From IMG/VR virus record IMGVR_UViG_3300031867_004305, positions 96,001 to 160,000 of that record: a DNA stretch of 64,000 bases. The stretch is one strand, 5' to 3'. Positions 42,742 through 61,260 of the stretch are shown in pieces; positions within the stretch are counted from its first letter, which is position 1; every line of letters begins with the position of its first letter. The notes below the pieces were generated by a model. That model did no database searches, had not been told where the DNA came from, and saw only the letters and a program-made list of their open reading frames with translations. Source of the stretch: a virus. Taxonomy: Duplodnaviria > Caudoviricetes. A program made the position numbers and the translations under genes.

Positions 42742-43380
42742 ATGCCATACATTTATAAAATTGTAAATGATATTAATAATAAAATATATGTTGGGAAAAC
42801 ATTGAAAACAGTTCAAGAAAGATGGAAGCAGCATTTATATGATTATGATAAAAAAAGAAATGAAAAACGACCTTTATATGATGCTATGTTAAAATATGGT
42901 CCTAATCATTTTCATATAGAAGAATTAGAAAATGTTTTAGACGCGACTTTATTAAATGAACGCGAAAAATATTGGATTGAATTTTTACATTCTTTTCAAG
43001 ATGGGTATAACGCCACATGCGGCGGAGATGGGACCCCATATGCTGATTATGCATTAATCTATGAATTATATACAATTCATAACTTAACATTTGAAAAAAT
43101 TCAAAATATAACTAATTATGATATGCGTACTATACGTGCTGCTATTATGAGTTGTGGTATTTCAAAAGAAAATATTGAAAAAATCCGCTTACAAAGATTA
43201 AGAAAGCCTGTAATGCAGTTAGATATAAAAACAGAAGAAATTTTAAAAATTTTTCCTAGTTGTACTGCTGCACAGCGTGAAGTTAGTAATAATCCAAATG
43301 ATTATTCTGGTACTCATATTTCTGCTGTATGCCGTGGCAAAAGACGTACTGCCTATGGTTATAAATGGAAATACTTGTAA
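42742..43380 (+). CDS. GIY-YIG homing endonuclease with NUMOD1-type C-terminus
   Basis: YIYKI.N..N.K.YVGKT, GYN, ISAVCRGKR.TAYGYKW. Confidence 0.9.
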   Translation: MPYIYKIVNDINNKIYVGKTLKTVQERWKQHLYDYDKKRNEKRPLYDAMLKYGPNHFHIEELENVLDATLLNEREKYWIEFLHSFQDGYNATCGGDGTPYADYALIYELYTIHNLTFEKIQNITNYDMRTIRAAIMSCGISKENIEKIRLQRLRKPVMQLDIKTEEILKIFPSCTAAQREVSNNPNDYSGTHISAVCRGKRRTAYGYKWKYL

Positions 43381-45100: not shown

Positions 45101-45281
45101 TTGATTTGGGATGATAATTTATATGACGCGATGAAAGATGTATATGACTATGCCTATCGCGTTTTTTTTGGAAAAGCACCCATAGATGTTACTTATCGTG
45201 TGAATTATGGCAGTAGAGGAGCAGAACAAAAAGTTTTACAGTATATTTGGAACACTTATATTGAACCGAAGGGAGAAAATA

Positions 45282-45863
45282 ATGAGTAATATTTATTTCA
45301 GTAGTGACTTGCATTTTTGTCATAACCGCGGTTTTCTTTATGAGCCACGCGGTTTTTCATCTATCGAAGAACATGACTCTGCCATTATTGAAAACTGGAA
45401 TAAAATAGTTAAAAATAATGATGTTGTTTTTCTACTTGGTGATTTAATGCTTAATGATAATGTAAATGGTATTAAAAAATTAAATAAATTAAATGGCACG
45501 ATATATTACATACGAGGAAACCATTGCTCAAATGCGCGTTGCGTCCTATACGAAGAACAAACTAATATGATTCCGCTATGTAATAATTTCTTTAGTAGTT
45601 GGGCTTCATTAGAAAAAATCAAAGGATATAATTTGTATTTATCTCATTATCCAACTATAATTGGCTCATTAAAAGATATGACGCCATTAAACAAGAGATT
45701 AATAAATCTTCATGGTCATCTTCATAGTAAAAATAAATTCTATCAAGATATTCCTTTTATGTATAATGTAGCACTTGACGCACATAATAACGCGCCCGTA
45801 TCATTTGATGAAATTATTTCAGATATTGAAGCAAAAGCAAATGAATGTATTGCTATGCTATAA
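45282..45863 (+). CDS. Calcineurin-like metallophosphoesterase
   Basis: SDLH, LGD, RGNH, SH.P, HGHLH. Confidence 0.9.
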   Translation: MSNIYFSSDLHFCHNRGFLYEPRGFSSIEEHDSAIIENWNKIVKNNDVVFLLGDLMLNDNVNGIKKLNKLNGTIYYIRGNHCSNARCVLYEEQTNMIPLCNNFFSSWASLEKIKGYNLYLSHYPTIIGSLKDMTPLNKRLINLHGHLHSKNKFYQDIPFMYNVALDAHNNAPVSFDEIISDIEAKANECIAML

Positions 45864-46264: not shown

Positions 46265-47800
46265 ATGAATCGTCTTTACAATGCTATGGCTTCTCAGAAC
46301 ACCTACAAGACTACCGAGAATGGTGCTATCGCACGCACCACGACCAGCTCTAAGCTATATGACCTCTTCTCTTTCGGCGCGGCTTACCGTCAGCGTACCG
46401 AGAGTGATTGCGTGCTACTATTTAAGGAGGCATATAAGGAAAGTCCTATGTATGCCCTAAAGTGCCTGTTCTATATCCGCGATATTCGCGGCGGACAGGG
46501 TGAGCGTCGTTTCTTCCGCACTTGCCTGCATTGGCTTGCGGATTATGACCGCAATGCCGTACTACGCAATCTTGACCAGATTGCTGAGTATGGCCGCTGG
46601 GATGACCTATATGCCCTAGTGGGGACTTCTTGTGAACATGATGCTCTTTATGCTCTTGGCAAGCAGCTTGCCCTTGATTACAAGACCAAGGGTGCTATTT
46701 CCCTTGCCGGTAAGTGGGCAGCTTCAGAGAACGCTTCTTCTGCCAAGACTAAGCGTTATGGTCGTCTAACTGCTCATACTATGGGTCTAACTTCTCGTCA
46801 ATATCGCAAGGTGCTTTCTACCCTTCGTGAGCGTATTCGTGTTCTGGAGCGACTTATGTCCGCAAATCGTTGGAATGAGATTGAATTTGACAAGATTCCT
46901 TCTCGTGCTGGCCTAATCTACAAGAACGCTTTTGCACGCCGTGATATCATCAAGGCGAAGTATGAGTCTTTTGCAAAGGATAAGACTACCAAGGTTAACG
47001 CGGCAGCCCTCTATCCTTACGATGTCGTAGCTAAGGCAATTAAGCTGATGGGCTCTGACAGCTGGTATGGCCGTGGTAATCATGTTGCTCTTGACAATAC
47101 CGATCGTCTAATGATTAACAAGTATTGGGAGAATCTTGTTGATTATCTGACTGGTGCTCCACTAAATGCGGTGGTAGTGGCTGATACAAGCGGAAGTATG
47201 TGTTCAGGTGCTAATAGTGTGGCTCCAATTGATGTTGCTGTTTCTTTGGCTCTATACGCGGCCGAACGTATGCGTGGTCCTTTTGCCAATCATTATATTT
47301 CTTTTAGCCGTAAGGCTCGTTTAATCGAGACTACTGGCGTGGATTTTTGTGATAAGGTAGATAGGATTGTAAGGACGAATCTATGTGAAAATACGAATTT
47401 AGCTTCCGTATTTGACCTTATCCTAAGTACTGCTTGTCACTATAATCTATCTCAAAAGGATATGCCAGAAAGCATTATTATTGTAACAGATATGGAAGTA
47501 GATTCCGCACAGGGTTATTCTTCTTGGGGACGAGCACCTGAATATGGACACGGCGGTAAGGGAATTCAAACCTTTATGGATAAGATGCGTAGTCGTTGGA
47601 CTGACGCAGGATATAAAATGCCAAAAATTGTATTTTGGAACGTAAACGCACGAAATAATACAATTTTGGATGATGGCCCTGATGTTACTAATGTCAGCGG
47701 TTGCTCACCGGTTCTATTTGAATCTATCCTATCTGGAAAAAGTTCTTATGATCTTATGATGGATAAGCTAAATAGTAATCGTTATAAGCCAATTCATTAA
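46265..47800 (+). CDS. DUF2828-type Ro/TROVE-like helical domain plus vWA domain protein
   Basis: TENGA, RDIRGG.GER, YGRWDDL, KW, LYPYD, DTSGSM (MIDAS), TDM, VFWN, VSG.S. Confidence 0.8.
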   Translation: MNRLYNAMASQNTYKTTENGAIARTTTSSKLYDLFSFGAAYRQRTESDCVLLFKEAYKESPMYALKCLFYIRDIRGGQGERRFFRTCLHWLADYDRNAVLRNLDQIAEYGRWDDLYALVGTSCEHDALYALGKQLALDYKTKGAISLAGKWAASENASSAKTKRYGRLTAHTMGLTSRQYRKVLSTLRERIRVLERLMSANRWNEIEFDKIPSRAGLIYKNAFARRDIIKAKYESFAKDKTTKVNAAALYPYDVVAKAIKLMGSDSWYGRGNHVALDNTDRLMINKYWENLVDYLTGAPLNAVVVADTSGSMCSGANSVAPIDVAVSLALYAAERMRGPFANHYISFSRKARLIETTGVDFCDKVDRIVRTNLCENTNLASVFDLILSTACHYNLSQKDMPESIIIVTDMEVDSAQGYSSWGRAPEYGHGGKGIQTFMDKMRSRWTDAGYKMPKIVFWNVNARNNTILDDGPDVTNVSGCSPVLFESILSGKSSYDLMMDKLNSNRYKPIH

Positions 47801-47840: not shown

Positions 47841-48584
47841 ATGGGAAGGCCCGCTAAAGATTTAACAAATCAAAGATTTCAACGATTATTAGTAATTAAG
47901 CGTGATGGTTCTACAGCTGATGGTCATGCTAAATGGTTATGTTTATGTAACTGCGGTAATTATATAAGTGTATCATCCAATAGTTTAAAACGCGGTGATA
48001 CTAAATCTTGTGGATGCTTAAATAAAGATGTAGCAAGAGAAAAAGGTAGACAATCTTATAAAGATCTCACTAATAAACGTTTTAATAAACTAATTGCTAA
48101 AGAATATTTAGGAAGTAATAATAAAGGAAGTGGTTTATGGAGATGCGAATGTGATTGTGGAAATAATAATTTTATTACAACGTCGCACCATTTAATTAGC
48201 AGCAATACGCAAAGCTGTGGTTGCTTAAAATCAAAAGGAGAAGCAAATATAAAACAACTACTTATAAATAATAATATTAATTTTATTTCACAATATTACT
48301 TTAAAGATTTATATTATGAAAGTAATATACCTGTTCGATTTGATTTTTATTTACCCGATTATAACCGATTAATTGAATTTGATGGTATTCAACATTATAC
48401 TTCTGGCGGTGGATGGAACACCGCTGAATTATTTAAACGCAATAAAAAACACGACGAAATTAGAAACCAATATGCCCTTTCCCACAACATTCCTCTCGTT
48501 CGCATACCATATTGGGAACGTGATAATATTACTCTTGAAATGTTATTTAGTGATGAATATTTAGTGAAAGAAGAAGATGAATGA
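47841..48584 (+). CDS. Homing-type endonuclease (Cys-rich repeats plus PD-(D/E)XK/Vsr-like domain)
   Basis: Two W.C.C.CG...SCGC repeats; FDFY, IEFDGIQH, LVRIPYW. Confidence 0.75.
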   Translation: MGRPAKDLTNQRFQRLLVIKRDGSTADGHAKWLCLCNCGNYISVSSNSLKRGDTKSCGCLNKDVAREKGRQSYKDLTNKRFNKLIAKEYLGSNNKGSGLWRCECDCGNNNFITTSHHLISSNTQSCGCLKSKGEANIKQLLINNNINFISQYYFKDLYYESNIPVRFDFYLPDYNRLIEFDGIQHYTSGGGWNTAELFKRNKKHDEIRNQYALSHNIPLVRIPYWERDNITLEMLFSDEYLVKEEDE

Positions 48585-48603
48585 AAATTCATCTTCTTTT
48601 TTA

Positions 48604-48632
48604 TTGACTAAATATAAAAATTATAGTATAAT
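48604..48632 (+). promoter_or_regulatory. SigA-type promoter
   Basis: TTGACT-N17-TATAAT. Confidence 0.7.
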
Positions 48633-48654
48633 AATTATAGAAAGGATGAGGAAT

Positions 48655-49011
48655 ATGAATTATTATATCTATCTTGATGATGTACGCGAAGATGATACTT
48701 GGTTTCGGCAACATTTAAATACAGAGCATTGGATTCCTTGCGTTGTTCGTTCCTATGATGAAGTAATTCATGTTCTCAATCATATGCGAGATTATATGAA
48801 TGAGAATGAAGTGCTTATTCTTGACCTCGACCACGACCTTGGCGAAACTGAAGAAGGCTATAATGAACTCGCGCGCACAGGATATGACGTTTGTAAGTGG
48901 ATTGTTGAAAACGATTTTCAAAATCTTTACTTTCATATACATAGTATGAACCCCGTTGGGTCTGCAAATATGCGGCAACTTCTTACTCATTATGGATATA
49001 AGGAGATTTAG
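48655..49011 (+). CDS. Cyclic-phosphate-processing receiver (REC-like) domain protein
   Basis: YLDD.R, LDHDLG, TGYD..KW, IHSMNPVG. Confidence 0.75.
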   Translation: MNYYIYLDDVREDDTWFRQHLNTEHWIPCVVRSYDEVIHVLNHMRDYMNENEVLILDLDHDLGETEEGYNELARTGYDVCKWIVENDFQNLYFHIHSMNPVGSANMRQLLTHYGYKEI

Positions 49012-49439: not shown

Positions 49440-50090
49440 ATGAGAAAGTATGAAAAGATTGATACTCTCTATCAAAGAGACACAACCGGAACTAAAAAGT
49501 TGCTTCCGGGAGTATTTCGTGATCCTACCGTAGAATATCTCAGCGACAATAATTGGATTTGGACTGAAAAGGTTGATGGCACTAATATCCGTGTATGTTG
49601 GGATGGCCATACTGTAACCTTTGGCGGCCGCACCGATAATGCTGCTATTCCCGCAGAACTTGTTACTCGTTTGAATGAGTTGTTCGGTGGAGAAACAAAT
49701 GCTCAAATTTTTGAACAGGTTTTCGGCGATAAGGAAGTCATTCTTTTCGGTGAAGGCTATGGTCGCAAGATTCAAAAGGGCGGTGGAAAGTATATTCCCG
49801 ACGGCGTAGATTTTATTCTTTTTGATGTGCTTATTGGCGACAATTATCAAGAACGAGAATGGGTAGAAGAAACTGCCACAATGTTTGGAATTAAAGCTGT
49901 TCCTATTGTTGGCACTGGTAGTCTATATGCCGCAGGAGAGTATGTAAAAACCCATCCTAATTCTGTAATTGCAGAAGAGCCGCGTGAAATGGAAGGAGTA
50001 GTATGTCGTCCTGCAATTGAACTACGCAATCGTCGCGGCGAGCGTATAATCGTAAAAATCAAATGGGAAGATATGAAGGAGCTAGTATAA
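49440..50090 (+). CDS. ATP-dependent RNA ligase (Rnl2-like nucleotidyltransferase domain)
   Basis: Motif I EKVDGTN, motif III FGE..G, IIIa FDV, IV EGVV, V KIK. Confidence 0.85.
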   Translation: MRKYEKIDTLYQRDTTGTKKLLPGVFRDPTVEYLSDNNWIWTEKVDGTNIRVCWDGHTVTFGGRTDNAAIPAELVTRLNELFGGETNAQIFEQVFGDKEVILFGEGYGRKIQKGGGKYIPDGVDFILFDVLIGDNYQEREWVEETATMFGIKAVPIVGTGSLYAAGEYVKTHPNSVIAEEPREMEGVVCRPAIELRNRRGERIIVKIKWEDMKELV

Positions 50091-50454: not shown

Positions 50455-51340
50455 AACAGGCGTTGTAAAATATCCTGTGTCCGCAAGAGTGATTGATACT
50501 AGTCTAAGTGGTCTCAACGGCGGAATATAAATAGGCAAAACCAAATTAGTATTGTATTAAATGAGCGGTGTTTAATGGGAACTGGAAATTACACACGGAA
50601 GCCCTGAGCGGGAGTACTACCGCAAGTTCTGCTATATGGGAGCAGACGCTCATTTAAAGCAACCGGTTGATTTACGTAATTAAGTCGTTAGGAGCGACAT
50701 GAGCAGCAATGCGGTAATACCGGTGCACCGGTAGCAAAGTTACCCTGGCTCCCCAGATGGCGCACTGGGTTATCAAAGGGCCGCTTGGCACCCTATCCCG
50801 AGCGTCTTCGTCGCGGTGCTAGAAACTCGCCCCATTAGCTGAGGGTCGAGGCAAAGAGGGAACGTTGTTGGTGGTAACGGTGAAGATTCGCCCGGTATTC
50901 TAGGCTTGCCGTAAAAGTGGTGGGTATACACACCACAGTCTAAACCCCAGTATATGTTGCGAACGACCTGGGTAAACAAAGTCGTTAGTTGGCGTCTTAT
51001 CCCAAGCCTTTACGCGGCGACGCTATAAGTACCAAGAAGCATTTTTAATGCTGGGCGTGAAACAAAGAGGGAACTAGGAGGCTGTGACCAAGGGTGATGT
51101 GGTCTGACAGTCCGAGTAATGACCGTTGAAGTCATTCGGTCGGTAGCAGGGCTCGGCCGTTACAACAGTGGATGCATACGCTTGTTAGCCCTTTTTATTG
51201 ATTCGGGAGGAAGTGTCCGTAGATGAACTTCTCGGAGTAATCGCCAAAATCGAATCGTGGTATACCATTGTACGAAACTTCTGTCATCCTTAGTTTCTTG
51301 CAGTTTCAAGGATGAGGGTCGCGGCCACCAGAGCGCCGCA
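50455..51340 (+). ncRNA. Unassigned structured non-coding region (about 890 nt)
   Basis: GC-elevated, no credible ORF, successive long-range stems between two tRNAs. Confidence 0.55.
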
Positions 51341-53879: not shown

Positions 53880-54836
53880 ATGGAAACTTACACAAATATT
53901 TGGTTAGATATTTCAGAAGAACAATGGAGAAAAATTATTTCTACTAGTCTAACTCGTGCAGAGGTCGCACGCAAAGTTAATCGTTGTCCCAATTCAAGTT
54001 TTAATGAGCGTTTAAAAAAATATTGTGATGAACATAATATCTCTATTGAACATTTTACAATTAATGAAAATGGCAATAAAGAGAAATATCAACTTGAAGA
54101 AATTCTAGTAGAAAACTCTCCTGCTTCGAGAAAAACATTAAGAGACTATTTAGCAAAATATAACATTCTAGAATATAAATGTGCTATTTGCGGGAATGTT
54201 GGAGAATGGAATGGAGTTTCTTTAACTTTACAAATAGACCATATTAATGGAATAAATAATGATAATAGAAAAGAAAATCTTCGTTGGTTATGTCCAAATT
54301 GTCATTCTCAAACTGACACGTTTACTGGGAAAAATAAAACTAAAAAAGAAGTTGTTAATTTCACAGTAGAAGAAGCGATTAAAGCATTAAGACAAACTGA
54401 AAATGTAAATCAAGCAACTAAATTAATCGGTTGTGCGCAAGGTGGAGCAAATTGGATTAGAGTAAATGATATTAAGAAAGAATATGGAATTGTTCAATCT
54501 GGAGATTTAAAAAAAGAAGAAAAATATAAGTTTGAAGAAAATCATATTAATGTAAAACCAATGAACTTTATTAAATTATGTAAAAAGTGCGGTCGTCCAT
54601 TATCGACAAAAGATGCTGAGTATTGTCAAACTTGTATTCACGAATTTCAACGAAAATGTGAATGGCCTTCCCGCGAAGAACTTAAAAAATTAATCCGTTC
54701 CACACCTTTTTTACAAATAGGTAAAAAATATAATGTAAGTGATAACGCTGTAAGAAAATGGTGTTTAAATTACGGTTTACCATCTAAAAAAAAGGAAATC
54801 AAAGCAATTTCAGATGAAGAGTGGGCTACCATTTGA
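53880..54836 (+). CDS. HNH endonuclease
   Basis: C..CG...LQIDHING...DNR.ENLR.LCPNCH. Confidence 0.9.
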   Translation: METYTNIWLDISEEQWRKIISTSLTRAEVARKVNRCPNSSFNERLKKYCDEHNISIEHFTINENGNKEKYQLEEILVENSPASRKTLRDYLAKYNILEYKCAICGNVGEWNGVSLTLQIDHINGINNDNRKENLRWLCPNCHSQTDTFTGKNKTKKEVVNFTVEEAIKALRQTENVNQATKLIGCAQGGANWIRVNDIKKEYGIVQSGDLKKEEKYKFEENHINVKPMNFIKLCKKCGRPLSTKDAEYCQTCIHEFQRKCEWPSREELKKLIRSTPFLQIGKKYNVSDNAVRKWCLNYGLPSKKKEIKAISDEEWATI

Positions 54837-55109: not shown

Positions 55110-55155
55110 AATTATAATATAATAATTATAGTAAAGGGAAAGGAATTAAGATGTA

Positions 55156-55219
55156 AGGCGGAAACAGCAACATTCTTTTAAGTAGCAATCTGTTAAATTG
55201 TAAGACTTATTAACCGCCT
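55156..55219 (+). ncRNA. CAGCAA stem RNA copy C
   Basis: AGGCGG-AAA-CAGCAA ... CCGCCT-AGA. Confidence 0.6.
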
Positions 55220-55228
55220 AGAATTTAT

Positions 55229-55649: not shown

Positions 55650-56235
55650 ATACCCTATTTAATAAAATGGTTGAACCAAGTGAAGAAGAGCTAACCACTC
55701 TGCTTGGACTATCCGAAAAACAGCCCCAAACTTGATGGGATACTTTCAAGCCAAGGCCGCGAAATCAGTAATGATTAGCGATATGGAGAAACTCCTAATG
55801 TTAAGGGTAGGTGCTTGGTTATCCGCTAACAAAAACTTGGCTCCTCGCGGCGTCGTAATAGAAGGTGGGCGTTAAAAGCGTGACCTGAATCCAAGTTAGG
55901 CGTAGGATGGCTGCCACCGCAAACCTTGGAAATGCCAACAAGACGCTTGGTGTCGTTGAAACCTAGAAATAGGATATAAGCGAGGTTCACAGAAAAAGTA
56001 GCCCAAAACGACAATGATTCTAATAGATATTTGTAAATATTACTTGGAATTATTGTGCTGAACGGTTCGGGTGAAATTTGAGAGTAAGCAATCTCTCCGT
56101 TGCTCACCGAAAGGTAGGGTGAAGAAGTCCGGAATTGCTACCCGTGGCTCAGCCTTCATCTTCAACGTGGTTGAATATGTTAGAAGGATAATACAAGTAC
56201 GACGAAGGTCGCAACGGTTTTATTAAATAGGGTAT
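55650..56235 (+). ncRNA. ROOL-like large RNA (about 586 nt)
   Basis: Terminal stem ATACCCTATTTAATAAAA/TTTTATTAAATAGGGTAT. Size and ordered motifs (AATCCAAGTTAGG, AAGTAGC, GCTGAACGGTTCGGGTGAAA, GCTCAGCC, GTTGAATA) match ROOL as I recall it. tRNA-cluster context. Confidence 0.7.
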
Positions 56236-56336
56236 TTGCCCTAAACTTTAAGGTAGCATTGGAGTAATTAACCAATGAGATGAAGATGCTCCTACATCAG
56301 CTTAAAGTTTAAAATATAATCATAGGAGTGATTAAT

Positions 56337-56897
56337 ATGCCAAAGAAAATTGATTTAACAGGAAAAATTTTTGGAATCGTACAGGTAGACTCACCAGCAC
56401 CAAGTCAATCTGGTAAAACATATTGGAATTGTCATTGTACTATTTGTAATACTAAAAAAGTAATTCAAGGCTGTGCTTTAAAAAATGGTTCTATTAAAAC
56501 TTGCGGTTGTGGTTGTTCTTTTCATAAACAAAACACTTCAAAAATTTGCGAAATTTGCGGAAAAGAATTTATTCCAATAAAATTTGGCGGTGCTAGAAAA
56601 TATTGTTATGAATGTTCTCCGCAAGAAGGCTCAGAAACAGATAAACGCACAGTTATAAGACGAGCTTTGAAAAAGATGCTAGTTGATTATAAAGGTGGAA
56701 AATGTGAGCTATGTGGATATAATAAATGTTTACGAGCATTAGAATTTCATCATTTAAATCCATCTGAAAAAGATTTTGGAATTTCTGGATGTATAACTAA
56801 AAATGTAGAAGAATTAAAAAATGAAGTTAATAAATGTATTTTAGTTTGTTCTAATTGTCATGCGGAAATCCATGAAGAGCTAGACGAGGCCCGTTAG
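56337..56897 (+). CDS. HNH endonuclease
   Basis: KGGKCE.CGY....ALEFHH.NP.EK...CILVCSNCH.E.H. Confidence 0.85.
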   Translation: MPKKIDLTGKIFGIVQVDSPAPSQSGKTYWNCHCTICNTKKVIQGCALKNGSIKTCGCGCSFHKQNTSKICEICGKEFIPIKFGGARKYCYECSPQEGSETDKRTVIRRALKKMLVDYKGGKCELCGYNKCLRALEFHHLNPSEKDFGISGCITKNVEELKNEVNKCILVCSNCHAEIHEELDEAR

Positions 56898-57470: not shown

Positions 57471-58010
57471 ATGAACGAAGTAAGACTAAAGATTCTACCT
57501 CCTTGGACTATTGTAATTCGTAAGTTCGAGGCCCTATTTGATGGTGACCCACAAATTGCTTGTAATTGTAACTTTAATGGTGCTAATCCTTCTATCGTTC
57601 TTGCTTGTAATAACGGAGATAAGGTCGCCGCACTCCTGAAGATTCTACCTTCCGAAGTTGATTTTGGTAATATTAAGCTAAAGGTTGTGGTCGATGGCAT
57701 TCCTTCTAATAAGGCATTTACTAGTAAGGTTGAGCTATTTGACACCGCTTTTAAGGGTAATCCCGCATATGCATATTCCATATGTCCTGCTGAAGAAGGT
57801 TATATGTGGATTGGAACTACTTATGTAGTGTTCAAGAATTTCGTCGTACAGTTTGCTGCTGATAATCTAAACGATTGTCACGGCATTATTAGCACTCTAT
57901 ATCAAGATATTGCAGAAGAGCTTCTACGTGGAGAAGCTACTGAAGGTGTTTTTTACAATACTGATGTAGAACGTGCGAATCTCGGTAAGCCCCTAGGTGA
58001 GTGGCCATAA
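57471..58010 (+). CDS. Hypothetical phage protein
   Basis: RBS; PPW...VVQF.ADNL.D..G motif. Confidence 0.65.
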   Translation: MNEVRLKILPPWTIVIRKFEALFDGDPQIACNCNFNGANPSIVLACNNGDKVAALLKILPSEVDFGNIKLKVVVDGIPSNKAFTSKVELFDTAFKGNPAYAYSICPAEEGYMWIGTTYVVFKNFVVQFAADNLNDCHGIISTLYQDIAEELLRGEATEGVFYNTDVERANLGKPLGEWP

Positions 58011-58023
58011 GCCACTCTAATCT

Positions 58024-58099
58024 GGGCCTATAGTTCAGCGGCTAGAATGTCCGGTTGTCTCCCGGAAGATCGCAGGTTCGAATCCTGTTAGGCTCGCCA
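58024..58099 (+). tRNA. tRNA-Asp(GUC)
   Basis: TCCGG-TTGTCTC-CCGGA; CCA. Confidence 0.9.
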
Positions 58100-58216
58100 T
58101 AGACTCATCCAGCAATTTCTTTTGCGCTGTAGGAGCCGGTAATATTGGTTCAAATCCAATTCTCCTCACCATATGAGGAGATAGTGTAATAGGTAGCACG
58201 CCGTAAAATGAGTCTA
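58100..58216 (+). ncRNA. CAGCAA stem RNA copy D with circularly permuted tRNA domain (Y-RNA-like)
   Basis: TAGACTCAT/ATGAGTCTA enclosing T-arm 58144-60, TCTCCTC-ACCA-TAT-GAGGAGA, and D-arm 58182-99. Confidence 0.75.
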
Positions 58217-58225
58217 GTATATTAT

Positions 58226-58302
58226 AGGGGTGTGGGCTAAAGGTGAGCCGCCTCATTTGGGGTGAGGACATCAAGTGAGTTCGATTCTCACCACTCCTAC
58301 CA
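58226..58302 (+). tRNA. tRNA-Pro(UGG)
   Basis: CCTCA-TTTGGGG-TGAGG; ACCA. Confidence 0.85.
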
Positions 58303-58400
58303 ATTAAGAAAAAGAGAAGCGTAAGAGTAATTAACTTATGAGATAACAATACCTCAATATTGAGTCTTTTTCTTATATAAATATTATTGAGGCGATATTT

Positions 58401-58949
58401 ATGCCTAAAAGAATGACACAAGAAGATTTTAATGCTAGAATAAAAGATTACACTAATGATTCTATAATAGTTATTGGAGAATATAAAAATAAAAAAACTC
58501 CTGTTTTAATACAATGTAAAAAATGTAATTACAAATGGTATTATTCTCCAGCATCATTAATGCCTAGTTCTACAAAAAATTATCATTTTAAAGGTTGCCC
58601 TAATTGTAAAAAAGTAACTCTTTTTTGCTTAGAATGTGGAAAAGAATTTACTCGGTTAAAAACTGAAATAAATGACAATAATTTTTGTTGTAAAACTTGT
58701 GCAAATCGTTATAAAAATAAACAAAAAATCAATAAAATTGATAGTTTAGCATACAGACGCAATGCTTTTGAATATTATCCGCACAAATGCGATATTTGTG
58801 GTTGGAATAAAGATGAAAGAGTATTAGAAGTTCATCATTTAGACGAAGATAGAACTAATAATCATATTGATAATTTACGAATTTTGTGTCCAAATTGTCA
58901 TAAATTTTTAACATTGCATCTTTATTCTTATGAAGAAATGAAACAGTAA
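58401..58949 (+). CDS. HNH endonuclease
   Basis: CDICG....LEVHH.D.DR.NN...NL.ILCPNCH. Confidence 0.9.
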   Translation: MPKRMTQEDFNARIKDYTNDSIIVIGEYKNKKTPVLIQCKKCNYKWYYSPASLMPSSTKNYHFKGCPNCKKVTLFCLECGKEFTRLKTEINDNNFCCKTCANRYKNKQKINKIDSLAYRRNAFEYYPHKCDICGWNKDERVLEVHHLDEDRTNNHIDNLRILCPNCHKFLTLHLYSYEEMKQ

Positions 58950-60012: not shown

Positions 60013-60128
60013 TAGGCACATGCAGCAACTTACATAGATAATCTATGAGTCATCGGTTCGATTCCGATTATGCAATCCAAAGCTTTGCGTATCGCCCAGA
60101 TGGTAGGGCAATAGAAACAAGGTGCCTA
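60013..60128 (+). ncRNA. CAGCAA stem RNA copy G with circularly permuted tRNA domain (Y-RNA-like)
   Basis: TAGGCAC/GTGCCTA enclosing T-arm 60052-68, TATGCAA-TCCA..-TTGCGTA, and D-arm 60092-109. Confidence 0.75.
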
Positions 60129-60580: not shown

Positions 60581-60639
60581 TAGTAGTGTATTCGGCTCTG
60601 ACCCGAAGTGTGATAGTTCAATTCTATCGTTCCCAGCCA
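60566..60639 (+). tRNA. tRNA-Gln(CUG)
   Basis: TTCGG-CTCTGAC-CCGAA; CCA; overlaps the upstream CDS end. Confidence 0.8.
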
Positions 60640-60642
60640 TAT

Positions 60643-60717
60643 GGGTGTGTAACCAAGAGGTAAGGTAACGGACTTTTAATCCGTGATTCGTGGGTTCGAT
60701 CCCCGCCACACCCACCA
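60643..60717 (+). tRNA. tRNA-Lys(UUU)
   Basis: ACGGA-CTTTTAA-TCCGT; CCA. Confidence 0.9.
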
Positions 60718-61105: not shown

Positions 61106-61180
61106 GCGGGTGTAGTTCAACGGCTCGAATACCTGGCTTCCACCCAGGAGATGAGGTTTCGACTACCTCTACTCGCACCA
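61106..61180 (+). tRNA. tRNA-Gly(UCC)
   Basis: CCTGG-CTTCCAC-CCAGG; ACCA. Confidence 0.85.
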
Positions 61181-61184
61181 ATAT

Positions 61185-61260
61185 AGGCGTGTAGCCAAGT
61201 GGTTAAGGCACATGGCTTTGACCCATGCATTCGCTGGTTCAAATCCAGCCACGCCTGCCA
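61185..61260 (+). tRNA. tRNA-Gln(UUG)
   Basis: CATGG-CTTTGAC-CCATG; CCA. Confidence 0.9.

What the first reader, a model, noticed from the sequence alone, without database searches (positions are those of the whole stretch)
58100..58216. Circularly permuted tRNA domain with internal ACCA inside CAGCAA copy D
Seen: the order is T-arm (ATTGG-TTCAAAT-CCAT-type hairpin at 58144-60), acceptor 3' strand TCTCCTC plus ACCA, a TAT linker, acceptor 5' strand GAGGAGA, then the D-arm. The CAGCAA stem replaces the anticodon arm. Known: T-acceptor-D order is the architecture of bacterial YrlA Y RNAs. Inference: it derives from the 3' and 5' halves of tandem tRNA genes. The retained CCA means processing could give a two-piece, chargeable, anticodon-less tRNA mimic or decoy.
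Basis: partly seen in the sequence, partly recalled or inferred. Interest (0 to 1): 0.8.

Follow-up and report, generated by a model that had tools for sequence, protein, structure and literature searches.

The report
Phage tRNA-shaped Y-like RNA
This 117-base stretch between two phage tRNA genes encodes a small RNA shaped like a tRNA with its ends moved and no anticodon, carrying a conserved "handle" that marks it as the likely partner of a phage protein folded like the RNA-surveillance protein Ro60, a branch of the Ro60/Y-RNA system I could not find in the literature.

Summary
Window 58100-58216 folds into a 9-bp terminal stem, an unpaired CAGCAA, a canonical T arm, a 7-bp acceptor helix closed by ACCA-UAU, U8-A9, a canonical D arm and a 3-4 bp remnant of the anticodon stem. 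There is no anticodon loop.

It is not a chance tRNA junction. The same architecture recurs in dozens of distant phages with compensatory changes in all five helices. It is nearly always framed by the same handle: stem, CAGCAA, and a G after the 3' strand.

Handle-bearing RNAs cluster on the same strand within 500 nt of a DUF2828/DUF7788 gene (here 46265-47800). That protein's predicted fold matches Ro60 (TROVE ring plus vWA) over its full length. One complete phage with such RNAs has a canonical TROVE gene instead.

Best reading (about 0.7): a YrlA-like Y RNA, released by processing of the flanking tRNAs and probably cut at its internal tRNA-type junction into two pieces with a CCA end. It fails the Rfam YrlA model and lacks the YrlA motif, so it is a new variant, not a member. 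Binding, cleavage and charging are untested.

This scan reached the same reading for copy G of this genome, and its notes report the system in at least 129 other genomes.

The parts
58100..58108 (+). 5' strand of the terminal stem (UAGACUCAU). It starts one base after the CCA of tRNA-Asp.
   Evidence: Helix 1 covaries in the family, with double changes in 7 of 8 pairs.
58110..58115 (+). Unpaired CAGCAA, the conserved handle motif and proposed docking site of the Ro60-like protein.
   Evidence: Conserved in 30-32 of 32 aligned family members. The position next to the 5' strand of the end stem is the same as the GNCGAA/CGAA motif of YrlA and of the phiLo Yrl RNAs.
58116..58136 (+). U-rich stretch and two small predicted hairpins (GCAA/UUGC and GCU-GUAGG-AGC). 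This part varies across the family.
   Evidence: MFE only. Weakly conserved AGGRA-type loop in D-type relatives.
58137..58143 (+). 3' strand of the anticodon-stem remnant (CGGU) plus a short variable loop (AAU).
   Evidence: Pairs with 58200-58203. Helix 2 is 81% paired, with double changes in 4 of 4 pairs.
58144..58160 (+). T arm: AUUGG, UUCAAAU, CCAAU.
   Evidence: The helix is 100% paired in the family and the loop positions UUC.A.U are invariant.
58161..58167 (+). Acceptor 3' strand UCUCCUC.
   Evidence: Pairs with 58175-58181. Helix 4 has double changes in 7 of 7 pairs and is 94-97% paired.
58168..58174 (+). Discriminator A, CCA, and UAU linker. The predicted RNase P cut lies between 58174 and 58175, and the predicted mature 3' end is at 58171.
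   Evidence: Same form as the natural tRNA-Gln/tRNA-Lys junction GCCA-TAT-G. NCCA is present in 21 of 62 family members. Cleavage is inferred, not shown.
58175..58183 (+). Acceptor 5' strand GAGGAGA plus U8-A9.
   Evidence: U8 is invariant, 32 of 32.
58184..58199 (+). D arm: GUGU, AAUAGGUA, GCAC.
   Evidence: A14, G18 and A21 are invariant or nearly so.
58200..58207 (+). 5' strand of the anticodon-stem remnant (GCCG) plus spacer UAAA.
58208..58217 (+). 3' strand of the terminal stem (AUGAGUCUA) plus the conserved following G. tRNA-Pro starts 9 nt further on.
   Evidence: The G after the stem is present in 31 of 32 members.
58024..58099 (+). tRNA-Asp(GUC). Its 3' maturation would set the 5' end of the RNA.
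58226..58302 (+). tRNA-Pro(UGG). RNase P cleavage at its 5' end would set the 3' end of the RNA.
   Evidence: There is no promoter or terminator on the + strand between them.
46265..47800 (+). Gene for a 511-aa Ro60-like protein (Pfam DUF2828 + DUF7788, PHROG 850 'RNA-binding protein'), the proposed protein partner.
   Evidence: AlphaFold2 model pLDDT 85.6. The top 12 PDB matches are all Ro60/TROVE, E 3e-8 to 3e-6, TM 0.37-0.57 by query length. The MIDAS residues D307, S309 and S311 are invariant.
45207..45863 (+). Phosphoesterase gene, part of the RNA-repair-type cluster around the Ro60-like gene.
   Evidence: PHROG 547, E 6e-47.
48577..49011 (+). cREC (cyclic-phosphate processing receiver) domain gene.
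   Evidence: Pfam PF20274, E 7.5e-20. Context in PMC7824862.
49440..50090 (+). RNA ligase gene.
   Evidence: Pfam PF09414, E 1.2e-15. PHROG 548.
60013..60128 (+). Copy G: a second handle RNA with a permuted tRNA-like domain of unrelated sequence (UCCA after the acceptor 3' strand).
   Evidence: R1 score 103.7 bits.

Best explanation
The stretch encodes a Y RNA-like small RNA of the YrlA type. It belongs to a large family of phage RNAs that share a handle: a 7-9 bp stem joining the two ends, an unpaired CAGCAA just after the 5' strand, and a G after the 3' strand.

Proposed mechanism:
- The RNA is transcribed within the tRNA array.
- It is released when tRNA-Asp is matured at its 3' end and RNase P cuts in front of tRNA-Pro.
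- The handle docks onto the phage's Ro60-like ring protein (DUF2828/DUF7788, 46265-47800).
- The cargo is a tRNA elbow with acceptor helix but no anticodon. It presents a tRNA-shaped surface to tRNA-handling enzymes, either to recruit them to the Ro60-like particle (RNA ligase, cREC and phosphoesterase are encoded next to the protein gene) or to divert host factors.
- The closed acceptor loop is built like a natural tRNA-tRNA junction (ACCA-UAU-G). RNase P probably cuts before 58175 and exonucleases trim back to CCA. This gives a stable two-piece RNA with a free CCA end, as reported for M. smegmatis YrlA.

Shown here: the fold, its conservation and covariation, the handle, the genomic linkage to the protein gene, and the protein's predicted Ro60 fold.

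Inferred: protein binding, release from the precursor, internal cleavage, and the downstream function.
For: - Structure: the cloverleaf lacking an anticodon arm is the minimum-free-energy fold, z = -4.37, with all tRNA tertiary signature bases present.
- Family size: a regex for T arm + acceptor 3' strand + linker + acceptor 5' strand + D arm found 20 modules in 15 loci fetched with the DUF2828 protein. None overlaps an ARAGORN tRNA call, and nearly all are framed by the stem-CAGCAA handle.
- Covariance model R1: 32 hits at E < 1e-8 in those loci. All 102 hits of the broader search at E <= 0.01 are on the protein gene's strand. A further 59 hits at E < 1e-6 came from 40 independent loci found by an RNA pattern alone.
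- Covariation: 93% of cells are paired against 33-43% when partners are slid. 27 of 28 pairs have double changes. The score is 0.79-0.82 against 0.11-0.16.
- Invariant positions: CAGCAA, U8, A14, G18 and the T-loop bases.
- Linkage: 167 handle elements lie on the gene's strand against 6 on the other. Density is 9.3 per 10 kb within 500 nt upstream and 5.0 per 10 kb within 500 nt downstream of the DUF2828 gene, against 0.2-0.5 per 10 kb beyond 500 nt on the downstream side and in the farthest upstream bin.
- Reverse direction: 30 of 38 R1-positive records hold PF11443. One more matches the protein profile, and one complete phage has a canonical Pfam TROVE gene with three such RNAs 200-800 nt upstream on the same strand. 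Of the records at least 90% complete, 17 of 18 carry a Ro60-like gene.
- Protein: AlphaFold2 pLDDT 85.6; the top 12 PDB matches are all Ro60/TROVE over the full length; the profile search of PDB gave weak Ro60 matches at the vWA MIDAS motif.
- Processing: 15 of 18 tRNA genes here encode CCA, and the natural junction GCCA-TAT-G has the same form. NCCA is present in 21 of 62 family members. The two-piece cofold energy is -39.1 kcal/mol, against -12.3 and -4.1 for the pieces alone.
Against: - There is no experimental or expression evidence of any kind, and binding of the RNA to the protein is inferred from genomic linkage alone.
- In this phage copy D lies 10.3 kb from the protein gene, outside the 4-kb rule used to define YrlA loci. 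The tight linkage is seen in other phages.
- Rfam YrlA gives no hit at E <= 10, and the handle motif differs from GNCGAAN0-1G.
- The protein does not match Pfam TROVE. The fold match has TM of only about 0.55 and rests on a predicted model.
- The seed RNAs were picked by rules that require pairing, and the model-fitted alignment leans towards the structure, so the percentage paired is partly by construction.
- The base rate of DUF2828 genes among large tRNA-rich phages was not measured. Handle RNAs, tRNAs and this gene could therefore co-occur because all sit in tRNA arrays.
- 41 of 62 relatives lack CCA, so a CCA end cannot be essential to the family's function.
Confidence: 0.7

Rival explanations
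1. A free-standing tRNA decoy. The RNA works without the Ro60-like protein as an anticodon-less tRNA mimic. It soaks up host factors that attack or modify the acceptor end or elbow of tRNAs, such as toxins acting on the CCA end or tRNA nucleases. The CAGCAA stem would then be only a stabilising or processing element.
For: The tRNA tertiary signature is intact and CCA is retained. The RNA sits in a tRNA array with RNA-repair genes. Other handle RNAs display anticodon-loop look-alikes, such as copy C with a CUGUUAA loop, or whole cloverleaves. That pattern fits a collection of tRNA-part decoys.
Against: It does not explain why the handle is invariant while the cargo varies freely. It also does not explain why handle RNAs pile up within 500 nt of the Ro60-like gene on its strand, even in loci with no tRNAs. 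The two readings are not exclusive, since a Ro60-bound decoy is possible.
Confidence: 0.13
2. A cis-acting spacer of the tRNA precursor. The folded element only organises or times the processing of tRNA-Asp and tRNA-Pro, with the internal tRNA-like junction as an extra RNase P entry site. It has no function once released.
For: It abuts tRNA-Asp directly and ends 9 nt before tRNA-Pro. It has no promoter or terminator of its own. Several copies sit 4-9 nt upstream of a tRNA.
Against: Many family members lie beside the Ro60-like gene in loci without any tRNA. Invariance of the unpaired CAGCAA and of the tertiary-contact bases goes beyond what a spacer needs. Orthologues keep the fold while the flanking tRNAs differ: Asp-Pro in the window and L009, Asp-Gly in L026.
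Confidence: 0.08
3. A circularly permuted tRNA gene that is matured into a working tRNA by joining the ends and opening the acceptor loop, as in the red alga Cyanidioschyzon merolae (recalled from memory). It could use the phage RNA ligase.
For: The 3' half precedes the 5' half, with CCA and a processable junction between them. An RNA ligase gene lies nearby. According to earlier notes of this scan, the phage has tRNA genes split by tRNA-shaped inserts.
Against: No 7-nt anticodon loop can be formed. Between the stem-remnant strands lie the conserved CAGCAA, two hairpins and a 9-bp stem. The same handle frames RNAs with no tRNA parts at all. The handle, not an anticodon, is the conserved feature.
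Confidence: 0.04
4. A decayed remnant of two tandem tRNA genes with no function.
For: The internal junction has the same form as a live tRNA-tRNA junction of this phage.
Against: The two acceptor strands pair with each other perfectly and covary across phages. No donor tRNA resembles the domain. The element is conserved in phages whose Ro60-like proteins are only 30-55% identical.
Confidence: 0.02

Closest known systems
YrlA Y RNAs of bacteria and TROVE-encoding phages (Rfam RF02553; Chen et al. 2014, PMC4201824)
   Same: The two ends are joined in a stem, with a short conserved unpaired motif next to the 5' strand. The order is T arm, closed acceptor-like stem, D arm, with no anticodon. The genes lie on the same strand as, and near, a Ro60-type gene, and there are often several per locus. 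M. smegmatis YrlA has a 7-bp acceptor, is cut by RNase P and receives CCA.
   Different: The motif is CAGCAA, not GNCGAAN0-1G. The Rfam model gives no hit on copy D. The partner is a DUF2828/DUF7788 protein that Pfam TROVE does not recognise. CCA is encoded in the gene. The RNA is embedded in a tRNA array and would be released by tRNA processing. The same handle carries many other cargoes.
Thermus phage phiLo Ro60 with Yrl1 and Yrl2 (PMC12135203; PDB 9KOP, 9L5Y)
   Same: A phage-encoded Ro60 ring with Y-like RNAs encoded just upstream. The RNAs have a 5'-3' stem flanking a bulge with a short conserved motif. The phiLo protein structures are among the best fold matches of the window's protein.
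   Different: The phiLo motif is CGAA. As read, the paper text has only two occurrences of 'tRNA' and none of 'YrlA', and the passages shown describe no tRNA-like domain. The phiLo protein was identified there as a Ro60 homologue through UniProt.
Class I RNAs of dictyostelid social amoebae (Rfam RF01414; Kjellin et al. 2021, PMC7919456)
   Same: A short stem joins the ends, an 11-nt conserved unpaired motif lies next to the 5' strand, and the rest is variable. The paper's near-invariant positions (T3, C6, C9, A10, A11) fit a motif ending in CAGCAA. The full motif is recalled from memory.
   Different: These are eukaryotic RNAs of 42-65 nt with no tRNA-like cargo. The Rfam model gives only a non-significant 11.8 bits on copy F and nothing on copy D. 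No Ro60-type partner is reported in that paper.
Circularly permuted tRNA genes of Cyanidioschyzon merolae (recalled from memory, not checked here)
   Same: The 3' half of a tRNA lies upstream of the 5' half, joined by a short linker that must be opened by tRNA end-processing enzymes.
   Different: Those genes keep a complete anticodon arm and yield working tRNAs. This one has no anticodon loop and instead has a conserved protein-handle.

Membership tests
YrlA (Rfam RF02553) | Match to the covariance model at or above 69 bits | tested here: not met
   There is no YrlA hit at E <= 10 on 57950-58350. The whole-genome search gave only 9.9 bits, on the T arm of tRNA-Asn. By contrast, RNAs beside a canonical TROVE gene in another phage score 27-37 bits.
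YrlA (Rfam RF02553) | GNCGAAN0-1G motif near the 5' end (proposed Ro60 contact) | tested here: not met
   The sequence has CAGCAA at the equivalent place. Motif definition from PMC4201824.
YrlA (Rfam RF02553) | tRNA-like domain in the order T arm, acceptor-like stem, D arm | tested here: met
   Covariation.
YrlA (Rfam RF02553) | Encoded within about 4 kb of a Ro60 orthologue, on the same strand | tested here: inconclusive
   Copy D is on the same strand but 10.3 kb from the Ro60-like gene. Family-wide, the handle RNAs peak within 500 nt of the gene. The protein is Ro60-like by predicted fold only.
Y RNA (functional class) | Physical association with a Ro60 protein | not testable with these tools
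   This needs co-purification or a gel-shift assay.
Ro60 / TROVE protein family (the proposed partner, 46265-47800) | Pfam TROVE (PF05731) match | tested here: not met
   only DUF2828 and DUF7788 match.
Ro60 / TROVE protein family (the proposed partner, 46265-47800) | HEAT-repeat ring followed by a vWA domain with a MIDAS motif | tested here: met
   In the predicted model, the top 12 PDB matches are all Ro60/TROVE over about 570 columns. D307, S309, S311, T377 and D409 are invariant. A canonical TROVE ORF in another phage also matches the DUF2828 profile at E 6e-6.
tRNA / permuted tRNA gene | Anticodon stem with a 7-nt loop | tested here: not met
   ARAGORN and Rfam call no tRNA here. The fold shows a junction with CAGCAA and a 9-bp stem in its place.
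Dictyostelid Class I RNA (Rfam RF01414) | Match to the covariance model at or above 41.5 bits | tested here: not met
   The best relevant hit is 11.8 bits on copy F (E about 4), with none on copy D.

The most novel reading that the evidence does not exclude
The RNA is cut at its internal tRNA-type junction into two base-paired pieces with a free, genome-encoded CCA end. In this form it is held on the Ro60-like ring as an anticodon-less tRNA surrogate. It would act as a bait or substrate that is aminoacylated, or that captures host enzymes or toxins acting on tRNA acceptor ends. It would thereby couple a Ro60-type particle to the phage's tRNA repair genes. That would give the enigmatic tRNA-like domain of Y RNAs a concrete job.
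Probability: 0.2. Interest if true: 0.85.

Novelty: new variant of a known kind. Interest (0 to 1): 0.62.

Why it matters
Ro60 and its Y RNAs are conserved from bacteria to humans, yet what the tRNA-like domain of bacterial Y RNAs does is still unknown. This finding has four consequences.
- It extends the pairing to a large, unstudied protein family (DUF2828/DUF7788). That family has thousands of homologues, many on large phage contigs, and Pfam does not link it to TROVE.
- It identifies a different RNA handle.
- It places the system inside phage tRNA arrays, next to an RNA ligase, a cyclic-phosphate-processing domain and a phosphoesterase. That points to tRNA damage and repair during infection as the arena.
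- Copy D is a clean test case. It has a textbook tRNA elbow, a 7-bp acceptor and an encoded CCA at a junction identical in form to a natural tRNA junction. Binding, RNase P cleavage and charging can therefore each be tested with simple in vitro assays.

Tried and rejected
- Rfam at gathering and at E <= 10 gave nothing on the element. RF02553 searched over the whole genome gave nothing relevant. RF01414 was not significant.
- BLAST of the element and of 7 kb around it against GenBank phages found no relative.
- Pfam TROVE is absent from the genome. A sequence search of the protein against PDB gave nothing, and the profile search gave only weak Ro60 hits at E 0.5-1.2. The link to Ro60 therefore rests on the predicted fold.
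- Donor tRNA: comparing the domain's halves with every tRNA called in the window and in 80 related loci gave no close match. The best was tRNA-Trp, and weak. A recent origin from a tandem duplication in this phage is rejected.
- No promoter or terminator belongs to the element on the + strand.
- The literature searches for DUF2828, for phage Ro60 with Y RNA and tRNA, and for TROVE with cREC returned no paper linking this RNA-protein pairing. Only the listed titles and abstracts and two of the papers were read.
- I looked for an aminoacylation identity set that works without an anticodon (G3:U70, long variable arm, G-1). None is present, so 'chargeable' stays unsupported.

Full report
**Setting**

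The window is bases 96001-160000 of a 181-kb IMG/VR virus record. All 19 tRNA genes lie on the + strand between 38.3 and 61.3 kb. A ROOL RNA lies at 55652-56230. The finding sits between tRNA-Asp (58024-58099) and tRNA-Pro (58226-58302).

**Observation**

- Terminal stem: 58100-58108 pairs with 58208-58216.
- CAGCAA: 58110-58115.
- T arm: 58144-58160.
- Acceptor 3' strand: 58161-58167, followed by ACCA 58168-58171 and UAU 58172-58174.
- Acceptor 5' strand: 58175-58181, followed by U8-A9.
- D arm: 58184-58199.

The minimum-free-energy fold reproduces this arrangement, plus a 3-4 bp remnant of the anticodon stem (58137-58140 with 58200-58203). Its energy is -38.0 kcal/mol, z = -4.37, and none of 200 shuffles folds as well.

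The bases that make the tRNA elbow are all in place: U8, A14, G18-G19, A21, T-loop UUCAAAU, and A15 with U48. No tRNA is called here by ARAGORN or Rfam, because there is no anticodon arm.

**It is one of a family**

At least eight elements in the window share the frame '(U/A)AGNCNNN, 1-3 nt, CAGCAA ... NNNGNCU(A/U)G'. They start at about 38471, 41936, 55150, 58100, 59291, 59409, 60013 and 61265. All lie on the + strand inside the tRNA array. Copy G (60013-60128) also carries a T arm, a closed acceptor with UCCA and a D arm, of unrelated sequence.

**The partner gene**

ORF 46265-47800 (511 aa) matches Pfam DUF2828 + DUF7788 and PHROG 850 'RNA-binding protein'. Around it lie a phosphoesterase (45207-45863), a cREC domain protein (48577-49011) and an RNA ligase (49440-50090). 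Burroughs, Aravind and colleagues describe this kind of set as RNA repair (PMC7824862).

Pfam TROVE does not match anywhere in the genome. An AlphaFold2 model built on 27 homologues has pLDDT 85.6 and pTM 0.84. Its 12 best PDB matches are all Ro60/TROVE proteins, aligned over about 570 columns. They include Xenopus, human and Deinococcus Ro60 and Thermus phage phiLo Ro60. E-values are 3e-8 to 3e-6, and TM by query length is 0.48-0.56 for eleven of them and 0.37 for Deinococcus Rsr. The MIDAS residues of the vWA domain are invariant. So the phage encodes a Ro60-shaped protein that sequence models do not connect to Ro60.

**Comparative evidence, protein to RNA**

The protein retrieved 80 viral loci at 29-97% identity, most of them inside tRNA arrays.
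- A rule-based scan for T arm + acceptor 3' strand + linker + complementary acceptor 5' strand + D arm found 20 modules in 15 of these loci. None overlaps a called tRNA, and nearly all are preceded by stem-CAGCAA and followed by the complementary stem.
- A stricter scan for the handle alone found 167 elements on the gene's strand and 6 on the other.
- Handle density is 9.3 per 10 kb in the 500 nt upstream and 5.0 per 10 kb in the 500 nt downstream of the gene. It is 0.2-0.5 per 10 kb beyond 500 nt on the downstream side and in the farthest upstream bin, and 1-4 per 10 kb across the upstream tRNA arrays.
- This includes loci with no tRNAs at all.

**Covariance model**

Model R1 was built from 21 sequences and has 127 positions and 28 pairs. 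It found 102 hits in these loci, all on the gene's strand, of which 32 have E < 1e-8.
- On those 32, 93.1% of pair cells are standard pairs, against 33-43% when partners are slid.
- 27 of 28 pairs show double changes.
- The covariation score is 0.82 against 0.11-0.16.
- The unfitted MAFFT seed alignment gives the same picture: 93.2% paired and a score of 0.79.

One caveat applies. The seeds were chosen by rules that require pairing, and the larger alignment is fitted to the model.

The closed acceptor helix has double changes at all seven pairs. Its two strands therefore belong to one another and are not the ends of two different tRNAs. CAGCAA, U8, A14, G18, the T-loop bases and a G after the 3' stem are invariant or nearly so.

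**Comparative evidence, RNA to protein**

An RNA-only pattern (ACAGCAA, 15-45 nt, GGTTCRANTCC) retrieved further viral contigs. Forty of the 80 loci held R1 hits at E < 1e-6.
- Of the 38 parent records that could be searched, 30 contain PF11443.
- One more contains a divergent homologue detected with the protein profile.
- One complete 167-kb phage instead has a canonical Pfam TROVE gene (73 bits). That ORF also matches the DUF2828 profile at E 6e-6.
- In that phage three R1-type RNAs lie 200-800 nt upstream of the TROVE gene on its strand. They hit Rfam YrlA below threshold, at 37, 36 and 27 bits.
- Among R1-positive records at least 90% complete, 17 of 18 carry a Ro60-like gene.

The base rate of this gene in comparable phages was not measured.

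**Processing**

- Fifteen of 18 tRNA genes in the window encode CCA.
- The natural junction between tRNA-Gln and tRNA-Lys reads GCCA-TAT-G, the same form as ACCA-TAT-G inside copy D.
- The acceptor and T helices stack to the 12 bp that bacterial RNase P recognises (established knowledge). A cut before 58175 and trimming to CCA are therefore expected, though not shown.
- The two pieces would stay together, with a cofold energy of -39.1 kcal/mol against -12.3 and -4.1 alone.
- Across 62 distinct family members, 21 have NCCA directly after the acceptor 3' strand, where about one is expected by chance. The rest close the helix with 2-6 nt loops.
- This mirrors known YrlA diversity. M. smegmatis YrlA is cut by RNase P and gains CCA, whereas cleavage of the Salmonella RNA was not detected (PMC4201824).
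- No promoter or terminator flanks the element on the + strand, so its outer ends are most simply set by maturation of the two flanking tRNAs.

**Origin**

However, no tRNA in the window or in the related loci resembles the domain closely. Orthologues of copy D keep the fold with compensatory acceptor changes after tRNA-Asp in two other phages. Any such origin is therefore old.

**Comparison with known systems**

The build is that of YrlA and of the phiLo Yrl RNAs: an end stem flanking a bulge with a CGAA motif, encoded upstream of the phage Ro60 gene. Membership in YrlA fails on the covariance model and on the motif. The protein fails Pfam TROVE.

The paper describes an end stem plus an 11-nt motif beside the 5' strand, with near-invariant T3, C6, C9, A10 and A11. 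That fits a motif ending in CAGCAA, but the Rfam model gives only 11.8 bits on copy F. This remains a resemblance, not a membership.

None of the papers returned by six literature searches links DUF2828 to Ro60 or describes CAGCAA-handle RNAs, as far as I read them.

**What the scan already had**

I reached the Ro60-like reading. The scan's notes were opened afterwards. They show the same reading for copy G of this genome, and 157 notes in at least 129 genomes on CAGCAA RNAs with DUF2828. My tests agree with them.

**Verdict**

The main addition is the Ro60-like partner and the family-wide handle. I rate this a new variant of a known kind.

Noticed in passing
window 55148-55228 (copy C): This handle RNA carries as cargo a hairpin CAAU-CUGUUAA-AUUG, which has the loop of an Asn(GUU) anticodon arm. 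Similar anticodon-loop look-alikes (CUUUUAA, CUGCUAA, CUUCAAA) occur in short handle RNAs of other phages.
   Followed up: partly
L021:2157-2268, L025:6938-7051, L017:141-253, L055:4245-4350: In some relatives the CAGCAA handle frames a whole, non-permuted, AU-rich cloverleaf that ARAGORN calls as a tRNA (anticodons UCA, UCU, GCG, or a 4-base one). The handle therefore carries tRNA parts in several topologies.
   Followed up: partly
L009:2927-3051: This handle RNA sits just upstream of tRNA-Phe(GAA). It holds a CUGGA-CUGAAAA-UCCCG hairpin (a Phe-type anticodon loop) ahead of its T arm, closed acceptor and D arm. It is therefore a complete tRNA permuted between the D and anticodon arms.
   Followed up: no
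L112:4300-4780 (- strand); record G028 102027-104008: A complete 167-kb phage with a canonical Pfam TROVE gene has three tRNA-like RNAs directly upstream. They score 27-37 bits with Rfam YrlA, below the 69-bit threshold. Only one contains CAGCAA, so this locus may bridge YrlA and the CAGCAA family.
   Followed up: partly
window 55652-56230: A full-length ROOL RNA (Rfam RF03087, 307.6 bits) lies inside the tRNA array.
   Followed up: no
window 42742-43380, 47841-48584, 53880-54836, 56328-56897, 58401-58949: Five GIY-YIG or HNH homing-endonuclease-type genes are scattered through the tRNA and RNA-repair region. One sits between the Ro60-like gene and the cREC gene.
   Followed up: no
window 50690-50720: A CAGCAA preceded by GGAGCGACAUGAG lies inside the long structured RNA that follows tRNA-Met. 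I did not check whether it is a handle.
   Followed up: no
window 60636-60643 and 61178-61185: Natural tRNA-tRNA junctions in this phage have only 3-4 nt between the encoded CCA and the next tRNA (GCCA-TAT-G and ACCA-ATAT-A).
   Followed up: yes
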